Shown here: one piece after another, positions 13,068 through 64,000 of the stretch
How positions within the stretch are numbered: position 1 is the first letter of the stretch
Layout: each line of letters opens with the position of its first letter
Assembly: GCA_964016885.1 (NCBI GenBank)
Contig: OZ024745.1
Location: forward strand, 10,850,001-10,914,000
DNA from: Eledone cirrhosa
Taxonomy: Eukaryota
Length of the DNA: 64,000 bases
Reading direction: 5' to 3'
The notes under the pieces: model-generated
What the model saw: only the letters and a program-made list of their open reading frames with translations
What the model was told of the DNA's origin: nothing
Databases searched by the model: none
Position numbers and translations under genes: made by a program

Positions 13068-13203
13068 TAACGAAAGAAATGTGGTAAGGAACTAAATGGA
13101 CCATAACGCACCAAAGTACTCAATACTTAGGGTAGTAGAGTGGGTAATAGGAACAAGTAAGACCCCGACGGCTTCAGCTCAGCCGTCGGGGTCTTACTTG
13201 TTC

Positions 13204-55118: not shown

Positions 55119-55219
55119 AAATGGCTGCCAGAATACATACGTGCTTTTTCTCAAAAGTTTTTTTCCATTCCTTCCTCTTCTCACGTTCTATCTTTCTATT
55201 TCTTTTATTTCGCATTCTA

Positions 55220-55256
55220 TTTTCTGATGAAGGACGAGTGTCTGAAACGTAAAGTC
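55220..55256 (+). ncRNA. Minimal hammerhead-like motif in a PLE-type 3' end fragment
   Basis: tttt CTGATGA aggac gagt gtct GAAA cg TA aag. Core strands are intact, stem II has a bulge, stem III is reduced to the palindrome ACGT, and stem I is weak. Confidence 0.45.
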
Positions 55257-55306
55257 TTTTTCCTACTATATCAAACATTAAACTTATATATATATATATA
55301 TATATA

Positions 55307-55423
55307 TAACGAAGGAAATGTGGTAAAGAACCAGATGGACCATAACGCACCAGAGTGGACTGAAATAGCCTGTCCAGAAATAGCCGTCGAAACGGCTTGA
55401 GCTCTGCCGTCGGGGTCATACTT

Positions 55424-55428
<5 letters not shown>
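55307..55428. mobile_element. Repeat family C, copy 2 (carries the 3' half of a hammerhead)
   Basis: Shared ATAACGAAGGAAATGTGGTAA... start, then TGGAC...GTCCA GAAATAGCCGTC GAAA CGGC ttgagctct GCCG TC GGGGTC. Flanked by (TA)n. Confidence 0.7.
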
Positions 55429-55462
<34 letters not shown>

Positions 55463-55595
55463 TAGAAGTGGTATTTAATTTGTTGGAAGTCCGACAAACA
55501 TAAATGTTTATAACTGATTTGGAGCACTCAACAGTTACTGGAGTAAATATTCAATGATATTAAATAAATGGAAACTATATTTATAAAACCATATT

Positions 55596-55660
55596 TATTT
55601 TATTATATATATTTCAAGGGTAACCAAGACGACATTGGTACGCTTTCATCAGATAAAATA
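55596..55660 (-). ncRNA. Type I hammerhead ribozyme (minus-strand copy)
   Basis: Exact reverse complement of 55785-55849. Confidence 0.75.
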
Positions 55661-55784
55661 CAAAGTTTGTTTTATAAATAGAGACATACTCATGAAAATC
55701 ATACCTTATCGGTTGGAAATTCCAGTGAATTTCCAACCGATAAGGTAGAATTTTCATGGGTATGTCTCTATAAAACAAACTTTG

Positions 55785-55849
55785 TATTTTATCTGATGAA
55801 AGCGTACCAATGTCGTCTTGGTTACCCTTGAAATATATATAATAAAATA
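55785..55849 (+). ncRNA. Type I hammerhead ribozyme with a palindromic minimal stem III
   Basis: Stem I TATTTTAT/ATAAAATA (8 bp); core CTGATGA (55793-55799); stem II AAG-c-GTACCAA/TTGGT-t-AC-c-CTT with loop TGTCGTC; GAAA (55830-55833); stem III ATATATAT; cleavage triplet AUA, with the cut predicted after 55841. Confidence 0.75.
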
Positions 55850-55888
55850 AATATGGTTTTATAAATATAGTTTCCATTTATTTAATAT

Positions 55889-55938
<50 letters not shown>

Positions 55939-56833: not shown

Positions 56834-56988
56834 ACGAAGGAAGTGTGGTAAGGAACCAGGTGGACCATAACGCACCAGAGTACCCGATACTATGGGTAGT
56901 AGAGTGGGTAATAGAAAAAGAATCAGGACCCCAGAAATAGCTGTCGAAACGGACGGAGCTCAGCCGTCGGGGTCCTGACTCTTTTCCT
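56831..56988. mobile_element. Repeat family C, copy 3
   Basis: Shared 5' part; arms TAGAAAAAGAATCAGGACCCC / GGGGTCCTGACTCTTTTCCTA enclose AGAAATAGCTGTCGAAACGGACGGAGCTCAGCCGTC. Confidence 0.75.
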
Positions 56989-57022: not shown

Positions 57023-57103
57023 AAATTACCTCAGATTTTTTGTTTAAGATGTGGTCTTTGGCGTATATACATATATATATATATATTTGTGTGTGTGTGT
57101 GTA

Positions 57104-57137
<34 letters not shown>

Positions 57138-57226
57138 TACACACACACACACACACACAAATATATATATATATATATGTATATACGCCAAAGACCACAT
57201 CTTAAACAAAAAATCTGAGGTAATTT
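57023..57226. repeat. 204-bp palindrome centred on a (TA)n tract
   Basis: AAATTACCTCAGATTTTTTGTTTAAGATGTGGTCTTTGGCGTATATACAT..(TG)n..TATGCA-(TA)n-TGCATA..(CA)n..ATGTATATACGCCAAAGACCACATCTTAAACAAAAAATCTGAGGTAATTT. Confidence 0.9.
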
Positions 57227-57726: not shown

Positions 57727-58650
57727 CTAGGGCGGGTAACATTCCCGAGATCTATGGTCGAGTTCTCTCCAGCGGTCTCTGTCCCTCATTATCGCTGCCA
57801 TGTCCTGCGTCTCCAACAGACCAGTGTCTGCCCTTAGGGCATCAACATACGTTAATCTTGGTCTTCCTCTTCCAGTGTGTCCATGTAGGGGCTCCCACAG
57901 GACCACTGAGTGCAATGTCAACTCTGGATGTCGGTGAGCATGTCCAGCTAACCTCAATCTCCTCTGTGTCACTTTTGAGCTGACTTTTGGGAGGCTCCCA
58001 TACAGCTCTGAGTTTTTCATCCTCAGTGTATACTGATTAATGTTCAGAGCCATCCTCAGCATTCTTGTGTAGCACCCATCCACCATCTGAGTGAGTTTCT
58101 TGGTCAGTGTCCAAGTCTCAGACCCGTACAGCAGCACAGACTCCACTACAGCTATGAAGAGGCGGATTTTCAGGTCTTTACGAAGGTCCGACTTCCACAC
58201 CGATCTCAAGCTGTGGCACGCCGCCCAGGCTTTGCTCTTCCTCTCAACCACATCATCTTCCGTATTCCCAATCTTTGCTCCCAAATACAGTCCTCAACCA
58301 ATTCTACCGGCTTCCCGCCTACATTAGTGATCCCCTCTGGCTTCTCAACATTCTCTACCAGATATTTTGTTTTAGTCTCATTCATTCTCAGCCCCACACT
58401 CATCGACACAGTCTCAACCTCCCGCATCAAATCCTCTGCCCCCTTCACTGTATTTGTCACCAAAACTATATCGTCGGCAAATTTTTCGCCTTAACTCTCC
58501 TGGTCGGAGCCGGTGCTACAGTAAAGCCAGAGTCCTGGTGTTTCTCCAGTGCAAGGCGCATACAATAGTCCACTACAATGATAAAAAGGTAGGGAGCCAA
58601 TGTATCTCCCTGGAGCACTCCAGCCAGTATCTCAAAGAACTCTGTCATCC
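57727..58650 (-). mobile_element. RTE-clade LINE, 5'-truncated RT pseudogene
   Basis: FEILAGVLQGDTLAPYLFIIVVDY, FADDI (58467-58481), GLRMNETKTKY, KIRLFIAVVESVLLYGSETWTLTK...RLRLAGH...GRPRLTY. Two frameshifts. Confidence 0.92.
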
Positions 58651-59127
58651 TATCATATATTTTTTATGTGTATTTGGTGCATACGTTCGTATATGTGCGG
58701 GTACATGTATCGCGCGGGTTTATGTATGTGTGCGCGTGTTTATGTGTACGTGCATGTATATGCATGCTTGGCGGGTGTTTTCGCGTATGCACGTGTATGT
58801 ACGTATATAGTGCGTGTATGTATATCTTTAATTATTATTGATTTTAATAACCTCTGTCATTTTCGTTCTACTAATTTATTTACATTATTCTTAACTCTGA
58901 AGCCGAGAATCATTCAGTTTCCTAAATAGAATATTAGTCTAATGACTCCATTTATACCATAAAAATGGTTTTGTCTTTGCGTGTAATTGTTCTCACCGCT
59001 CCACATAACGAGGTATTATCTTCGCTTTTTTCCGTTCATTGCCTGGGAACGTCTTCCCGAACCAATGTATCGTCTTCCTGTTTTCCTTCGGTTGCAACGT
59101 TTTTCGAAATATTCACTTCTGCGTTCA

Positions 59128-59508: not shown

Positions 59509-62500
59509 CCAGACTCTGTTCCCATGTTGCTCCAGCTGGTCCTACGATGCCCCAGACCCTACTCCCATGTTGCTCCAGCTGGTCCTACGATGCCCTAGAC
59601 CCTACTCCCATTTTGCTCCAGCTGGTCCTACGATGCCCTAGACCCTACTCCCATTTTGCTCCAGCTGGTCCTACGATGCCCCAGACCCTACTCCCATGTT
59701 GCTCCAGCTGGTCCTACGATGCCCCAGACTCTACTCCCATGTTGCTCCAGCTGGTCCTACGATGCCCCAGACCCTACTCCCATGTTGCTCCAGCTGGTCC
59801 TACGATGCCCCAGACTCTACTCCCATGTTGCTCCAGCTGGTCCTACGATGCCCTAGACTCTACTCCCATGTTGCTCCAGCTAGTCCTACGATGCCCCAGA
59901 CCCTACTCCCATGTTGCTCCAGCTGGTCCTACGATGCCCCAGACTCTACTCCCATGTTGCTCCAGCTGGTCCTACGATGCCCCAGACTCTACTCCCATGT
60001 TGCTCCAGCTGGTCCTACGATGCCCCAGACTCTACTCCCATGTTGCTCCAGCTGGTCCTACGATGCCCTAGACTCTACTCCCATGTTGCTCCAGCTAGTC
60101 CTACGATGCCCCAGACCCTACTCCCATGTTGCTCCAGCTGGTCCTACGATGCCCCAGACTCTACTCCCATGTTGCTCCAGCTGGTCCTACGATGCCCCAG
60201 ACCCTACTCCCATGTTGCTCCAGCTGGTCCTACGATGCCCTAGACCCTACTCCCATGTTGCTCCAGCTGGTCCTACGATGCCCCAGACCCTACTCCCATT
60301 TTGCTCCAGCTGGTCCTACGATGCCCTAGACCCTACTCCCATTTTGCTCCAGCTGGTCCTACGATGCCCCAGACCCTACTCCCATGTTGCTCCAGCTGGT
60401 CCTACGATGCCCCAGACCCTCCTCCCATGTTGCTCCAGCTGGTCCTACGATGCCCTAGACCCTACTCCCATGTTGCTCCAGCTGGTCCTACGATGCCCCA
60501 GACTCTACTCCCATGTTGCTCCAGCTGGTCCTACGATGCCCCAGACCCTACTCCCATGTTGCTCCAGCTGGTCCTACGATGCCCCAGACTCTACTCCCAT
60601 GTTGCTCCAGCTGGTCCTACGATGCCCTAGACCCTACTCCCATGTTGCTCCAGCTGGTCCTACGATGCCCCAGACTCTACTCCCATGTTGCTCCAGCTGG
60701 TCCTACGATGCCCCAGACCCTACTCCCATGTTGCTCCAGCTGGTCCTACGATGCCCCAGACTCTACTCCCATGTTGCTCCAGCTGGTCCTACGATGCCCC
60801 AGACTCTACTCCCATGTTGCTCCAGCTGGTCCTACGATGCCCCAGACCCTACTCCCATGTTGCTCCAGCTGGTCCTACGATGCCCCAGACTCTACTCCCA
60901 TGTTGCTCCAGCTGGTCCTACGATGCCCCAGACTCTACTCCCATGTTGCTCCAGCTGGTCCTACGATGCCCCAGACTCTACTCCCATGTTGCTCCAGCTG
61001 GTCCTACGATGCCCCAGACTCTACTCACATGTTGCTCCAGCTGGTCCTACGATGCCCCAGACTCTACTCCCATGTTGCTCCAGCTGGTCCTACGATGCCC
61101 CAGACTCTACTCCCATGTTGCTCCAGCTGGTCCTACGATGCCCCAGACTCTACTCACATGTTGCTCCAGCTGGTCCTACGATGCCCCAGACTCTACTCAC
61201 ATGTTGCTCCAGCTGGTCCTACGATGCCCCAGACTCTACTCCCATGTTGCTCCAGCTGGTCCTACGATGCCCCAGACTCTACTCCCATGTTGCTCCAGCT
61301 GGTCCTACGATGCCCCAGACTCTACTCACATGTTGCTCCAGCTGGTCCTACGATGCCCCAGACTCTACTCCCATGTTGCTCCAGCTGGTCCTACGATGCC
61401 CCAGACTCTACTCCCATGTTGCTCCAGCTGGTCCTACGATGCCCCAGACTCTACTCCCATGTTGCTCCAGCTGGTCCTACGATGCCCCAGACTCTACTCA
61501 CATGTTGCTCCAGCTGGTCCTACGATGCCCCAGACTCTACTCACATGTTGCTCCAGCTGGTCCTACGATGCCCCAGACTCTACTCCCATGTTGCTCCAGC
61601 TGGTCCTACGATGCCCCAGACTCTACTCCCATGTTGCTCCAGCTGGTCCTACGATGCCCCAGACTCTACTCCCATGTTGCTCCAGCTGGTCCTACGATGC
61701 CCCAGACTCTACTCCCATGTTGCTCCAGCTGGTCCTACGATGCCCCAGACTCTACTCACATGTTGCTCCAGCTGGTCCTACGATGCCCCAGACTCTACTC
61801 ACATGTTGCTCCAGCTGGTCCTACGATGCCCCAGACTCTACTCCCATGTTGCTCCAGCTGGTCCTACGATGCCCCAGACTCTACTCCCATGTTGCTCCAG
61901 CTGGTCCTACGATGCCCCAGACTCTACTCCCATGTTGCTCCAGCTGGTCCTACGATGCCCCAGACTCTACTCACATGTTGCTCCAGCTGGTCCTACGATG
62001 CCCCAGACTCTACTCCCATGTTGCTCCAGTTGGTCCTACGATGCCCCAGACTCTACTCCCATGTTGCTCCAGCTGGTCCTACGATGCCCCAGACTCTACT
62101 CCCATGTTGCTCCAGCTGGTCCTACGATGCCCCAGACTCTACTCCCATGTTGCTCCAGCTGGTCCTACGATTCCCCAGACTCTACTCCCATGTTGCTCCA
62201 GTTGGTCCTACGATGCCCCAGACTCTACTCCCATGTTGCTCCAGCTGGTCCTACGATGCCCCAGACTCAACTCCCATGTTGCTCCAGCTGGTCCTACGAT
62301 GCCCCAGACTCTACTCCCATGTTGCTCCAGCTGGTCCTACGATTCCCCAGACTCTACTCCCATGTTGCTCCAGCTGGTCCTACGATGCCCCAGACTCTAC
62401 TCCCATGTTGCTCCAGCTGGTCCTACGATGCCCCAGACTCTACTCACATGTAGCTCCAGCTGGTCCTACGATGCCCCAGACTCTACTCCCATGTTGCTCC

Positions 62501-64000
62501 AGTTGGTCCTACGATGCCCCAGACTCTACTCCCATGTTGCTCCAGCTGGTCCTACGATGCCCCAGACTATACTCCCATGTTGCTCCAGCTGGTCCTACGA
62601 TGCCCCAGACTCTACTCCCATGTTGCTCCAGCTGGTCCTACGATTCCCCAGACTCTACTCCCATGTTGCTCCAGCTGGTCCTACGATTCCCCAGACTCTA
62701 CTCCCATGTTGCTCCAGCTGGTCCTACGATTCCCCAGACTCTACTCACATGTTGCTCCAGTTGGTCCTACGATTCCCCAGACTCTACTCCCATGTTGCTC
62801 CAGCTGGTCCTACGATTCCCCAGACTCTACTCCCATGTTGCTCCAGCTGGTCCTACGATTCCCCAGACTCTACTCACATGTTGCTCCAGTTGGTCCTACG
62901 ATTCCCCAGACTCTACTCCCATGTTGCTCCAGCTGGTCCTACGATTCCCCAGACTCTACTCACATGTTGCTCCAGTTGGTCCTACGATTCCCCAGACTCT
63001 ACTCCCATGTTGCTCCAGTTGGTCCTACGATGCCCCAGACCCTACTCCCATGTTGCTCCAGCTGGTCCTACGATTCCCCAGACTCTACTCCCATGTTGCT
63101 CCAGCTGGTCCTACGATGCCCCAGACTCTACTCACATGTTGCTCCAGTTGGTCCTACGATTCCCCAGACTCTACTCCCATGTTGCTCCAGCTGGTCCTAC
63201 GATTCCCCAGACTCTACTCCCATGTTGCTCCAGCTGGTCCTACGATTCCCCAGACTCTACTCACATGTTGCTCCAGCTGGTCCTACGATTCCCCAGACTC
63301 TACTCCCATGTTGCTCCAGCTGGTCCTACGATTCCCCAGACTCTACTCACATGTTGCTCCAGTTGGTCCTACGATTCCCCAGACTCTACTCCCATGTTGC
63401 TCCAGCTGGTCCTACGATTCCCCAGACTCTACTCCCATGTTGCTCCAGTTGGTCCTACGATGCCCCAGACCCTACTCCCATGTTGCTCCAGCTGGTCCTA
63501 CGATGCCCCAGACTCTACTCCCATGTTGCTCCAGCTGGTCCTACGATTCCCCAGACTCTACTCCCATGTTGCTCCAGTTGGTCCTACGATGCCCCAGACC
63601 CTACTCCCATGTTGCTCCAGCTGGTTCTACGATGCCCCAGACTCTACTCCCATGTTGCTCCAGTTGGTCCTACGATGCCCCAGACCCTACTCCCATGTTG
63701 CTCCAGCTGGTCCTACGATGCCCCAGACTCTACTCCCATGTTGCTCCAGCTGGTCCTACGATTCCCCAGACTCTACTCCCATGTTGCTCCAGTTGGTCCT
63801 ACGATGCCCCAGACCCTACTCCCATGTTGCTCCAGCTGGTCCTACGATGCCCCAGACTCTACTCCCATGTTGCTCCAGCTGGTCCTACGATTCCCCAGAC
63901 TCTACTCCCATGTTGCTCCAGTTGGTCCTACGATGCCCCAGACCCTACTCCCATGTTGCTCCAGCTGGTCCTACGATGCCCCAGACTCTACTCCCATGTT
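59509..64000. repeat. 43-bp tandem repeat, at least 104 units, running off the window end
   Basis: Consensus CCCATGTTGCTCCAGCTGGTCCTACGATGCCCCAGAC(T/C)CTACT, head-to-tail. Confidence 0.99.

What the first reader, a model, noticed from the sequence alone, without database searches (positions are those of the whole stretch)
55552..55893. 342-bp palindrome encoding an apparently intact hammerhead ribozyme on each strand
Seen: all core nucleotides (CUGAUGA, GAAA, UH) are present, with an 8-bp stem I, a 10-bp interrupted stem II and a self-complementary stem III (AUAUAUAU). The motif is at 55785-55849 (+) and identically at 55596-55660 (-). Known: PLE hammerheads with a palindromic stem III can work as dimers, and ribozymes in both polarities on a rod-like RNA are a hallmark of viroid-like agents. 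Inferred: most likely an inverted pair of PLE or retrozyme termini. A read-through RNA would fold into a ~170-bp rod that masks the ribozyme, while RNA starting near the centre could self-cleave, so activity would depend on the start site.
Basis: partly seen in the sequence, partly recalled or inferred. Interest (0 to 1): 0.75.

Follow-up and report, generated by a model that had tools for sequence, protein, structure and literature searches.

The report
Head-to-head Penelope (Hydra-type) retroelement stub
The mirror-image DNA with a hammerhead ribozyme motif on each strand is real and is one of many similar short stubs of an abundant Penelope-like jumping gene lodged in TA repeats; each stub was likely built on landing by copying the capped, still uncut start of the element's RNA twice, so it is an ordinary insertion product and not a viroid-like agent.

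Summary
The palindrome (55552-55893) and both type I hammerhead motifs are as described. The insertion is larger, 55461-55893: one arm carries an extra 91-nt tail, and (TA)n lies on both sides. The hammerhead is the pLTR motif of a Penelope-like retroelement in this 3-Gb genome (3,921 exact hits of a 32-mer). Longer copies carry an RT + GIY-YIG ORF with the Hydra-clade motifs.

The palindrome is not copied as a unit. Centre junctions differ between copies, the two arms share copy-private mutations, and 27 of 31 head-to-head pairs have one short and one tailed end (none short/short or long/long). Arms stop at a fixed +1. An untemplated G precedes +1 in 25 of 57 AT-flanked junctions, against 0 of 54 at a control position, which likely marks a cap.

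Best model: twin priming on one capped, uncleaved RNA, with strand displacement. The layout is published for Penelope-like elements, and this scan has reported such stubs before, in this genome and others, including the cap-G. Cleavage was not tested, and the monomer fold is predicted to be very unstable.

The parts
55428..55460 (.). (TA)n target microsatellite, left side
55461..55551 (-). One-sided 91-nt tail: PLE sequence between the first and second 3' end points (about +182 to +275 in the reference copy L125). In full-length copies it runs on into the ORF leader.
55552..55722 (-). Long (tailed) arm: pLTR copy starting at +11 of the family's start site, reading outward from the centre
55596..55660 (-). 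Type I hammerhead motif of the long arm; predicted cleavage after 55604
55721..55722 (.). Inversion junction with a 2-nt overlap shared by both arms
   Evidence: L001: +11/+5, overlap 2
55721..55893 (+). Short arm: pLTR copy from +5 to the first 3' end point (about +181)
55785..55849 (+). Type I hammerhead motif: stem I 55785-92/55842-49, core 55793-99, stem II 55800-29, GAAA 55830-33, palindromic stem III 55833-40, predicted cleavage after A55841
55894..55938 (.). (TA)n target microsatellite, right side

Best explanation
This is one of many short head-to-head insertions of the hammerhead-bearing pLTR of a Penelope-like retroelement with Hydra-type protein motifs, lodged in a TA microsatellite, and it was likely made at insertion by two reverse transcriptions of one capped, uncleaved RNA. 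Shown: the family, its RT + GIY-YIG ORF, the (TA)n targets, two fixed 3' end points about 94 nt apart, a fixed 5' wall at +1, and copy-specific junctions. Inferred: the protein nicks both strands of (TA)n. One nick primes cDNA at the inner site (+181) and usually runs to the cap. The other primes at the outer site (+275) and stops anywhere from inside the tail (no overlap, like L1 twin priming) to the cap, displacing the first cDNA. The two cDNA ends are then joined with short overlaps or fill-ins. When both run almost to the cap, the result is this 342-bp palindrome with a one-sided tail. The stub is most likely dead on arrival, and its ribozymes are passengers.
For: (1) The family is large: 3,921 exact hits of a hammerhead 32-mer. 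All 40 scored of 813 candidates are full palindromes with the tail on one side. [quoted passage not shown] (3) 27 of 31 head-to-head pairs from pattern-picked loci are short+tailed; none is short+short or tailed+tailed; 3 have one unresolved end and 1 was called ORF+short. (4) Arms of one copy are closer (p-distance 0.020) than arms of different copies (0.035). 46 of about 100 minor substitutions are shared by both arms (null mean 5.3, maximum 15 in 2,000 permutations), 14 are private to one copy, and there is no fixed left/right difference (39 copies). (5) Junctions vary: 34 distinct types in 39 copies. (6) In 38 of 39 copies no arm extends beyond -1. An untemplated G precedes +1 in 25 of 57 AT-flanked junctions against 0 of 54 at +7 (Fisher p=2.5e-9). 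An extra G marks capped full-length L1 insertions (PMC11702581, passage). (7) The short arm reaches further 5' than the tailed arm in 28 of 39 (tailed further in 8, ties 3). In 5 of the 21 loci where I could read an inverted partner, the tailed arm stops inside the tail or at the inner site with no overlap; snap-back on a cDNA cannot give that. (8) In vitro, a PLE protein nicks and extends both strands, starts RT at two internal sites that define the tail, and uses uncleaved RNA (PMC11167929).
Against: Arm concordance is incomplete. At family-polymorphic sites 42 variants are on both arms but 22 on only one, and this copy mixes a private shared change with arm-specific ones, so two RNAs or later arm-to-arm gene conversion may contribute. 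The 40 palindromes were picked by similarity to this one, which biases the 5'-end and arm-length counts. The +7 control is dominated by TAT microhomology joins. The 'cap' and 'start site' readings rest on DNA junctions only. No RT tree was built, and the GIY-YIG Pfam hit is just under the curated cutoff (21 vs 22.6 bits).
Confidence: 0.88

Rival explanations
1. Same PLE origin, but the two arms come from two RNA molecules held by a dimeric protein, and their shared changes reflect a common source locus or gene conversion between the arms after insertion.
For: 22 one-arm-only variants at polymorphic sites; this copy's short arm carries a 2-nt variant that L038 has on both arms; the PAc protein is predicted to be a dimer (PMC11167929).
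Against: 42 both-arm variants against about 10 expected; 14 copy-private shared changes; abutting non-overlapping arms and the short/long rule are simplest with one RNA.
Confidence: 0.25
2. Fold-back synthesis: one cDNA snaps back on itself and is copied to make the second arm.
For: Explains shared private changes; in 8 of 39 copies the tailed arm reaches further 5', as snap-back predicts.
Against: A cDNA primed at the inner site lacks the tail, yet the short arm is the longer at the 5' end in 28 of 39; some pairs do not overlap at all.
Confidence: 0.07
3. The palindrome is itself a non-autonomous mobile unit (fold-back or MITE-like, or a retrozyme) or the trace of an ambisense viroid-like RNA with working ribozymes in both polarities.
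For: Many copies share the same outer ends; five junction types recur in two of the 39 parsed copies each; the hammerhead core and stems are conserved with covariation.
Against: Junctions mostly differ and there are no fixed arm differences; the ends are asymmetric; no same-strand pairs within 1 kb in 100 listed hits; copies span the cleavage site and begin at a likely cap; conservation is explained by selection on the parent PLE.
Confidence: 0.04
4. Assembly or library fold-back artefact.
For: Palindromes are a known chimera type (general knowledge).
Against: Seven differing bases between the arms, a one-sided tail, and 40 dispersed copies with distinct junctions, flanks and shared private changes.
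Confidence: 0.01

Closest known systems
Insertion unit of EN+ Penelope-like elements: pLTR, adjacent inverted 5'-truncated copy, one-sided tail (Craig et al. 2021, PMC8557442, Fig. 2 legend; passages read)
   Same: Inverted 5'-truncated partner at the 5' end, tail at one end only, hammerhead in the pLTR, microsatellite target.
   Different: The tail is about 91-94 nt rather than 30-40. Both arms are cut to the pLTR alone and cluster at a fixed +1 with an extra G, which the passages read do not describe.
Hydra clade of Penelope-like elements (PMC8557442, section on Hydra; passage read)
   Same: C-terminal GIY-YIG, DKT, CxCX5C linker, no CCHH, CxxC and CxH near the C-terminus, canonical hammerhead, (TA)n target.
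   Different: The RWK motif reads RWC here; the unit is about 3.4 kb with a 1-kb 3' UTR (Hydra elements are generally under 3 kb); the copy number is in the thousands. No tree was built.
Poseidon_Ac (PAc) of Anolis carolinensis (Frangieh et al. 2024, PMC11167929; parts 1-2 of 4 read)
   Same: Two internal RT start sites bounding the tail; both strands nicked and extended; AT-rich target; uncleaved RNA as template; ribozyme inactive without protein.
   Different: Here the ORF starts about 50 nt after the tail rather than inside the hammerhead; both end points are followed in the RNA by AU runs resembling (TA)n, so short primer pairing is possible.
PLE minimal hammerheads (Cervera and de la Pena 2014, PMC4209133; parts 1-2 of 4 read)
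   Same: Type I, long helix II, palindromic helix III suited to a dimer; dual motifs 100-700 bp apart on opposite strands were already noted in Schistosoma; low in vitro activity reported.
   Different: Longer, all A-U stem I (8 bp), an 8-nt palindrome, and A-U at 10.1-11.1 in this subfamily.
L1 twin priming and cap-derived extra G (PMC11702581; passages read)
   Same: Second primer starting internally on the RNA, an inverted segment joined by microhomology, and an extra G at full-length 5' junctions.
   Different: L1 inversions overlap by at most about 10 bp; here the arms overlap by up to about 180 nt and both priming sites are fixed.
Non-LTR retrozymes (bioRxiv 10.64898/2026.07.22.740005, parts 1-2 of 5 read; PMC7229834 seen as a search listing only)
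   Same: Non-coding type I hammerhead repeats related to PLE pLTRs.
   Different: Retrozymes are head-to-tail tandem arrays; these are dispersed head-to-head stubs.

Membership tests
EN+ Penelope-like element | Single ORF with RT and GIY-YIG endonuclease linked to this repeat | tested here: met
   Open frames of 689-699 aa; RT motifs seen by eye in the alignment; PF01541 E=4e-4, under the curated cutoff; Pfam found nothing on the two long proteins.
EN+ Penelope-like element | pLTR on both sides of the ORF (partial tandem) | tested here: met
   The unit follows the 3' UTR and runs directly into the ORF in 30 fetched copies, several with 3' UTR upstream.
EN+ Penelope-like element | Inverted 5'-truncated partner and one-sided tail | tested here: met
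   13 of 25 distinct pattern-picked insertions have an adjacent inverted partner; 27 of 31 pairs are short+tailed.
EN+ Penelope-like element | Hammerhead motif in the pLTR | tested here: met
   Core nearly invariant in 19 diverged versions; 14 of 20 pairs show two-sided changes (shuffle mean 5.2, 0 of 500). Two distant rows and relatedness inflate this.
EN+ Penelope-like element | 5' UTR intron retained in genomic copies | tested here: inconclusive
   Donor-like and acceptor-like motifs are conserved, but a pattern for one spliced junction found 0 copies; no RNA data.
Hydra clade | DKT in place of DKG | tested here: met
   SDKTNN
Hydra clade | CxCX5C linker; CCHH absent; CxxC and CxH near the C-terminus | tested here: met
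   CNCRIKVNC; one Cys in the GIY-YIG core; FCKLC and SCRH (read by eye)
Hydra clade | RWK motif | tested here: inconclusive
   RLRWC here; RWK, RWR or RWQ in relatives
Hydra clade | (TA)n insertion target | tested here: met
Hydra clade | Placement in the Hydra clade by RT phylogeny | not tested
   No named reference proteins were fetched; the paper's supplements were not opened.
Non-LTR retrozyme | Head-to-tail tandem units each with a hammerhead | tested here: not met
   0 same-strand pairs within 1 kb and 11 head-to-head pairs among the 100 listed hits; one 233-nt same-strand pair among the 57 hits.
Viroid-like ambisense RNA | Circular RNA replicating through both polarities with active ribozymes | not testable with these tools
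   Needs RNA data and cleavage assays; the DNA evidence points to a retroelement instead.
Active hammerhead ribozyme | Self-cleavage at UH | not testable with these tools
   Predicted monomer fold probability 3e-5; stem I pairing about 0.01 in the arm-long RNA; the stem III palindrome gives a -5.2 kcal/mol duplex in trans.

The most novel reading that the evidence does not exclude
These stubs are a fossil record of the PLE transposition intermediate. One capped, unspliced, ribozyme-uncleaved RNA is copied twice by strand-displacing twin priming from two fixed AU-rich sites onto both nicked (TA)n strands. That would explain in vivo how PLE inverted repeats and the one-sided tail arise, and it would show that the conserved hammerhead does not make the ends of the inserted RNA and may instead act to remove or regulate transcripts.
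Probability: 0.6. Interest if true: 0.55.

Novelty: new member of a known kind. Interest (0 to 1): 0.3.

Why it matters
As a locus it is an ordinary dead stub. As a family it offers hundreds of natural junctions bearing on an open question named in PMC8557442: how PLE inverted and tailed insertions form. The short/long rule, the cap-like G and the arm-shared mutations give a specific twin-priming model that the existing in vitro PLE assay can test. The many perfect hairpins could also be a source of host double-stranded RNA (untested).

Tried and rejected
Rfam scan: no hammerhead family match, only spurious miRNA hits.

Neptune assignment, my first guess from the Cys linker: dropped after reading the clade diagnostics, which fit Hydra.

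Intron enclosing the hammerhead: motifs are conserved, but 0 spliced genomic copies were found for the one junction tested and no such joint appeared among the rows shown; left open.

Sequencing runs: no RNA holder listed. The laid runs are DNA or of unknown kind, so they say nothing on expression, cleavage, circles or editing. Their summed contig depth over the pLTR is far above that over the ORF start, but that is not a copy number.

A-to-I editing trace in the retrocopies: no sense-strand A>G excess (shared A>G 5, T>C 16; unshared 14 and 18; 48 A and 62 T columns).

A conserved 9-12 bp helix enclosing the outer end point appears in the alignment fold of 31 copies, but with only one two-sided change in that helix; not claimed.

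The architecture census was swamped by (TA)n hits and was repeated.

Rows dropped: one of 40 copies failed anchor parsing and one (L046); L016, L031 and L047 junction calls are imperfect; one search missed pairs with diverged anchors; the satellite hits were ignored.

Literature: a search for Penelope + retrotransposon + cap + non-templated + twin priming (4 of 5 terms) and one for octopus + Penelope + hammerhead listed no paper that, by title or abstract start, describes a cap-G or twin priming for PLEs. The library lacks most subscription papers, and no supplements were opened; those of PMC8557442 hold Hydra sequences and hammerheads that may include this family.

Full report
Observation. 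The inverted repeat runs from 55552 to 55893, with a 4-nt centre, one 4-nt indel and three substitutions between the arms. A type I hammerhead descriptor finds two hits in the whole 64 kb, at the coordinates given, and none in 5,000 shuffles of the 342 nt. All core positions are present, but pair 10.1-11.1 is A-U. The hammerhead conformation is not the minimum-energy fold of the 65-mer (probability 3e-5), and stem I pairs at about 0.01 in an arm-long RNA. The whole palindrome folds into a -250 kcal/mol rod. The two motifs lie on opposite strands, so one transcript carries only one sense ribozyme and a dimer could form only in trans.

True boundaries. The window lies in a 3.0-Gb genome. All 40 scored of 813 candidates are dispersed full palindromes, and all carry the same extra sequence of about 91 nt on one side only (one with an internal deletion), nearly always between (TA)n tracts. 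The insertion here is 55461-55893. A 32-mer from the 3' half of the hammerhead has 3,921 exact hits. Among the 100 listed, 11 pairs lie head to head within 1 kb and none lies in tandem within 1 kb. Of 25 distinct insertions fetched this way, 13 have an adjacent inverted partner.

Parent element. Head-to-head pairs 0.4-3.4 kb apart enclose pieces of an ORF and a 1-kb 3' UTR that lead into the same unit. Longer copies give open frames of 689-699 aa, and in 30 fetched copies the unit continues through the tail into the ORF, whose ATG lies at about +325. The protein has RT motifs, DKT, a CNC-x5-C linker, a C-terminal GIY-YIG (PF01541, E=4e-4, just under cutoff) without CCHH, and CxxC/CxH motifs. 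These match the diagnostics given for the Hydra clade (PMC8557442, passage); 390 representatives match at E<=1e-30. No tree was built, so the clade call rests on motifs. Across 19 diverged versions the hammerhead core is nearly invariant and 14 of 20 pairs show two-sided changes. This points to selection on the fold in the parent elements, not in this stub.

Built at each insertion. In 39 copies the two arms of a copy differ by 2.0% and arms of different copies by 3.5%. 46 of about 100 minor substitutions are on both arms (null mean 5.3), 14 are private to a single copy, and no column separates left from right arms. Junctions fall into 34 types in 39 copies, with overlaps of 0-4 nt or short fill-ins. 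Against a pure single-template reading, 22 variants at polymorphic sites are on one arm only, versus 42 on both.

Fixed ends. The 3' ends fall at two points, +181 and +275, each followed in the element by an AU run resembling (TA)n. Of 31 head-to-head pairs from pattern-picked loci, 27 pair a short end with a tailed end, none pairs like with like, and 4 are unresolved or atypical. The 5' ends stop at a wall: in 38 of 39 palindromes neither arm passes -1 of an initiator-like motif (the initiator label is recalled). At junctions where +1 follows 12 A/T bases and one G or C, 25 of 57 have G although the template base is C. At a control position (+7), 0 of 54 do (p=2.5e-9). An extra G is the described mark of capped full-length L1 insertions (PMC11702581, passage), and D. 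virilis Penelope has an internal promoter with an initiator (PMC2377424, passages). I therefore read +1 as the capped start of the RNA. This copy starts at +5 and +11 and has lost it.

Mechanism. Copies that run from the likely cap across the intact hammerhead imply an uncleaved template, as found in vitro for PAc, where both DNA strands are nicked and extended and two internal RT starts define the tail (PMC11167929). The short arm reaches further 5' in 28 of 39 copies (a sample biased by the query), and among arms starting at +1 the tailed partner stops anywhere from about +11 to inside the tail; 5 of 21 readable partners have no overlap. Snap-back on one cDNA cannot give a tailed second arm or non-overlapping arms. 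Twin priming on one RNA, with the outer polymerase displacing the inner cDNA, gives both. A two-RNA version with later conversion remains possible. These steps are inferred; none was observed.

Comparison and verdict. The inverted partner with a one-sided tail is the published layout of EN+ PLE insertions (PMC8557442), and opposite-strand hammerhead pairs 100-700 bp apart were noted in 2014 (PMC4209133). Retrozyme membership fails on tandem structure. Earlier notes of this scan describe the same kind of stub in this and other genomes, the short/long rule and the cap-G; I reached these readings from my own calls before seeing the notes. My two targeted paper searches found no cap-G or twin-priming description for PLEs. 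Verdict: real, a new member of a known kind, of modest interest (0.3), with a testable mechanistic by-product.

Noticed in passing
window 55309-55428; also 56834-56984 and 13070-13203: A second (TA)n-inserted family with the same build (tail piece plus inverted arm; full palindromes at L081 and L002), found in 31 of 222 fetched loci. It has a GAAAC half-core but no CUGANGA that I could find, so it may be a PLE stub with a variant or missing hammerhead.
   Followed up: partly
window 55205-55282: A separate minimal hammerhead-like motif (CUGAUGA, short stem II, GAAACGUA) just before a (TA)n; similar flanks in 15 of 222 loci; probably a third PLE family.
   Followed up: partly
window 57023-57226: A near-perfect 204-bp palindrome centred on a (TA)n/(CA)n tract with 43-bp unique outer arms, a different geometry from the PLE stubs.
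   Followed up: no
window 57730-58660 (-): Frameshifted C-terminal fragment of a non-LTR retrotransposon RT (RTE-like by recalled motifs).
   Followed up: partly
window 17041-53391 and 59509-64000: A 55-bp satellite (661 copies, strong strand skew) and a 43-bp satellite (at least 104 copies) flank the repeat-rich island that holds the finding.
   Followed up: no
G000:C2 near 232.25 Mb: A 35-bp-period tandem array containing this element's +1 region, accounting for many of the 1,101 reverse hits: a satellite apparently born from the pLTR start.
   Followed up: no
L133-L162, about 100 nt upstream of +1: Motif blocks upstream of the start site, including an ATTTGCAT octamer-like word, stay conserved across subfamilies only 80-85% identical, suggesting upstream promoter elements in the 3' UTR.
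   Followed up: no
L133-L162, tail and ORF leader: Two complementary pairs (about 7 and 12 bp) between the tail and the leader are arranged as a possible pseudoknot around the outer end point; one diverged copy (L127) has a compensatory change in the 12-bp pair.
   Followed up: partly
L119 (G000:C5 near 1.94 Mb): A near-intact ORF whose 5' end joins (TA)n right at the outer end point, with no pLTR upstream.
   Followed up: no
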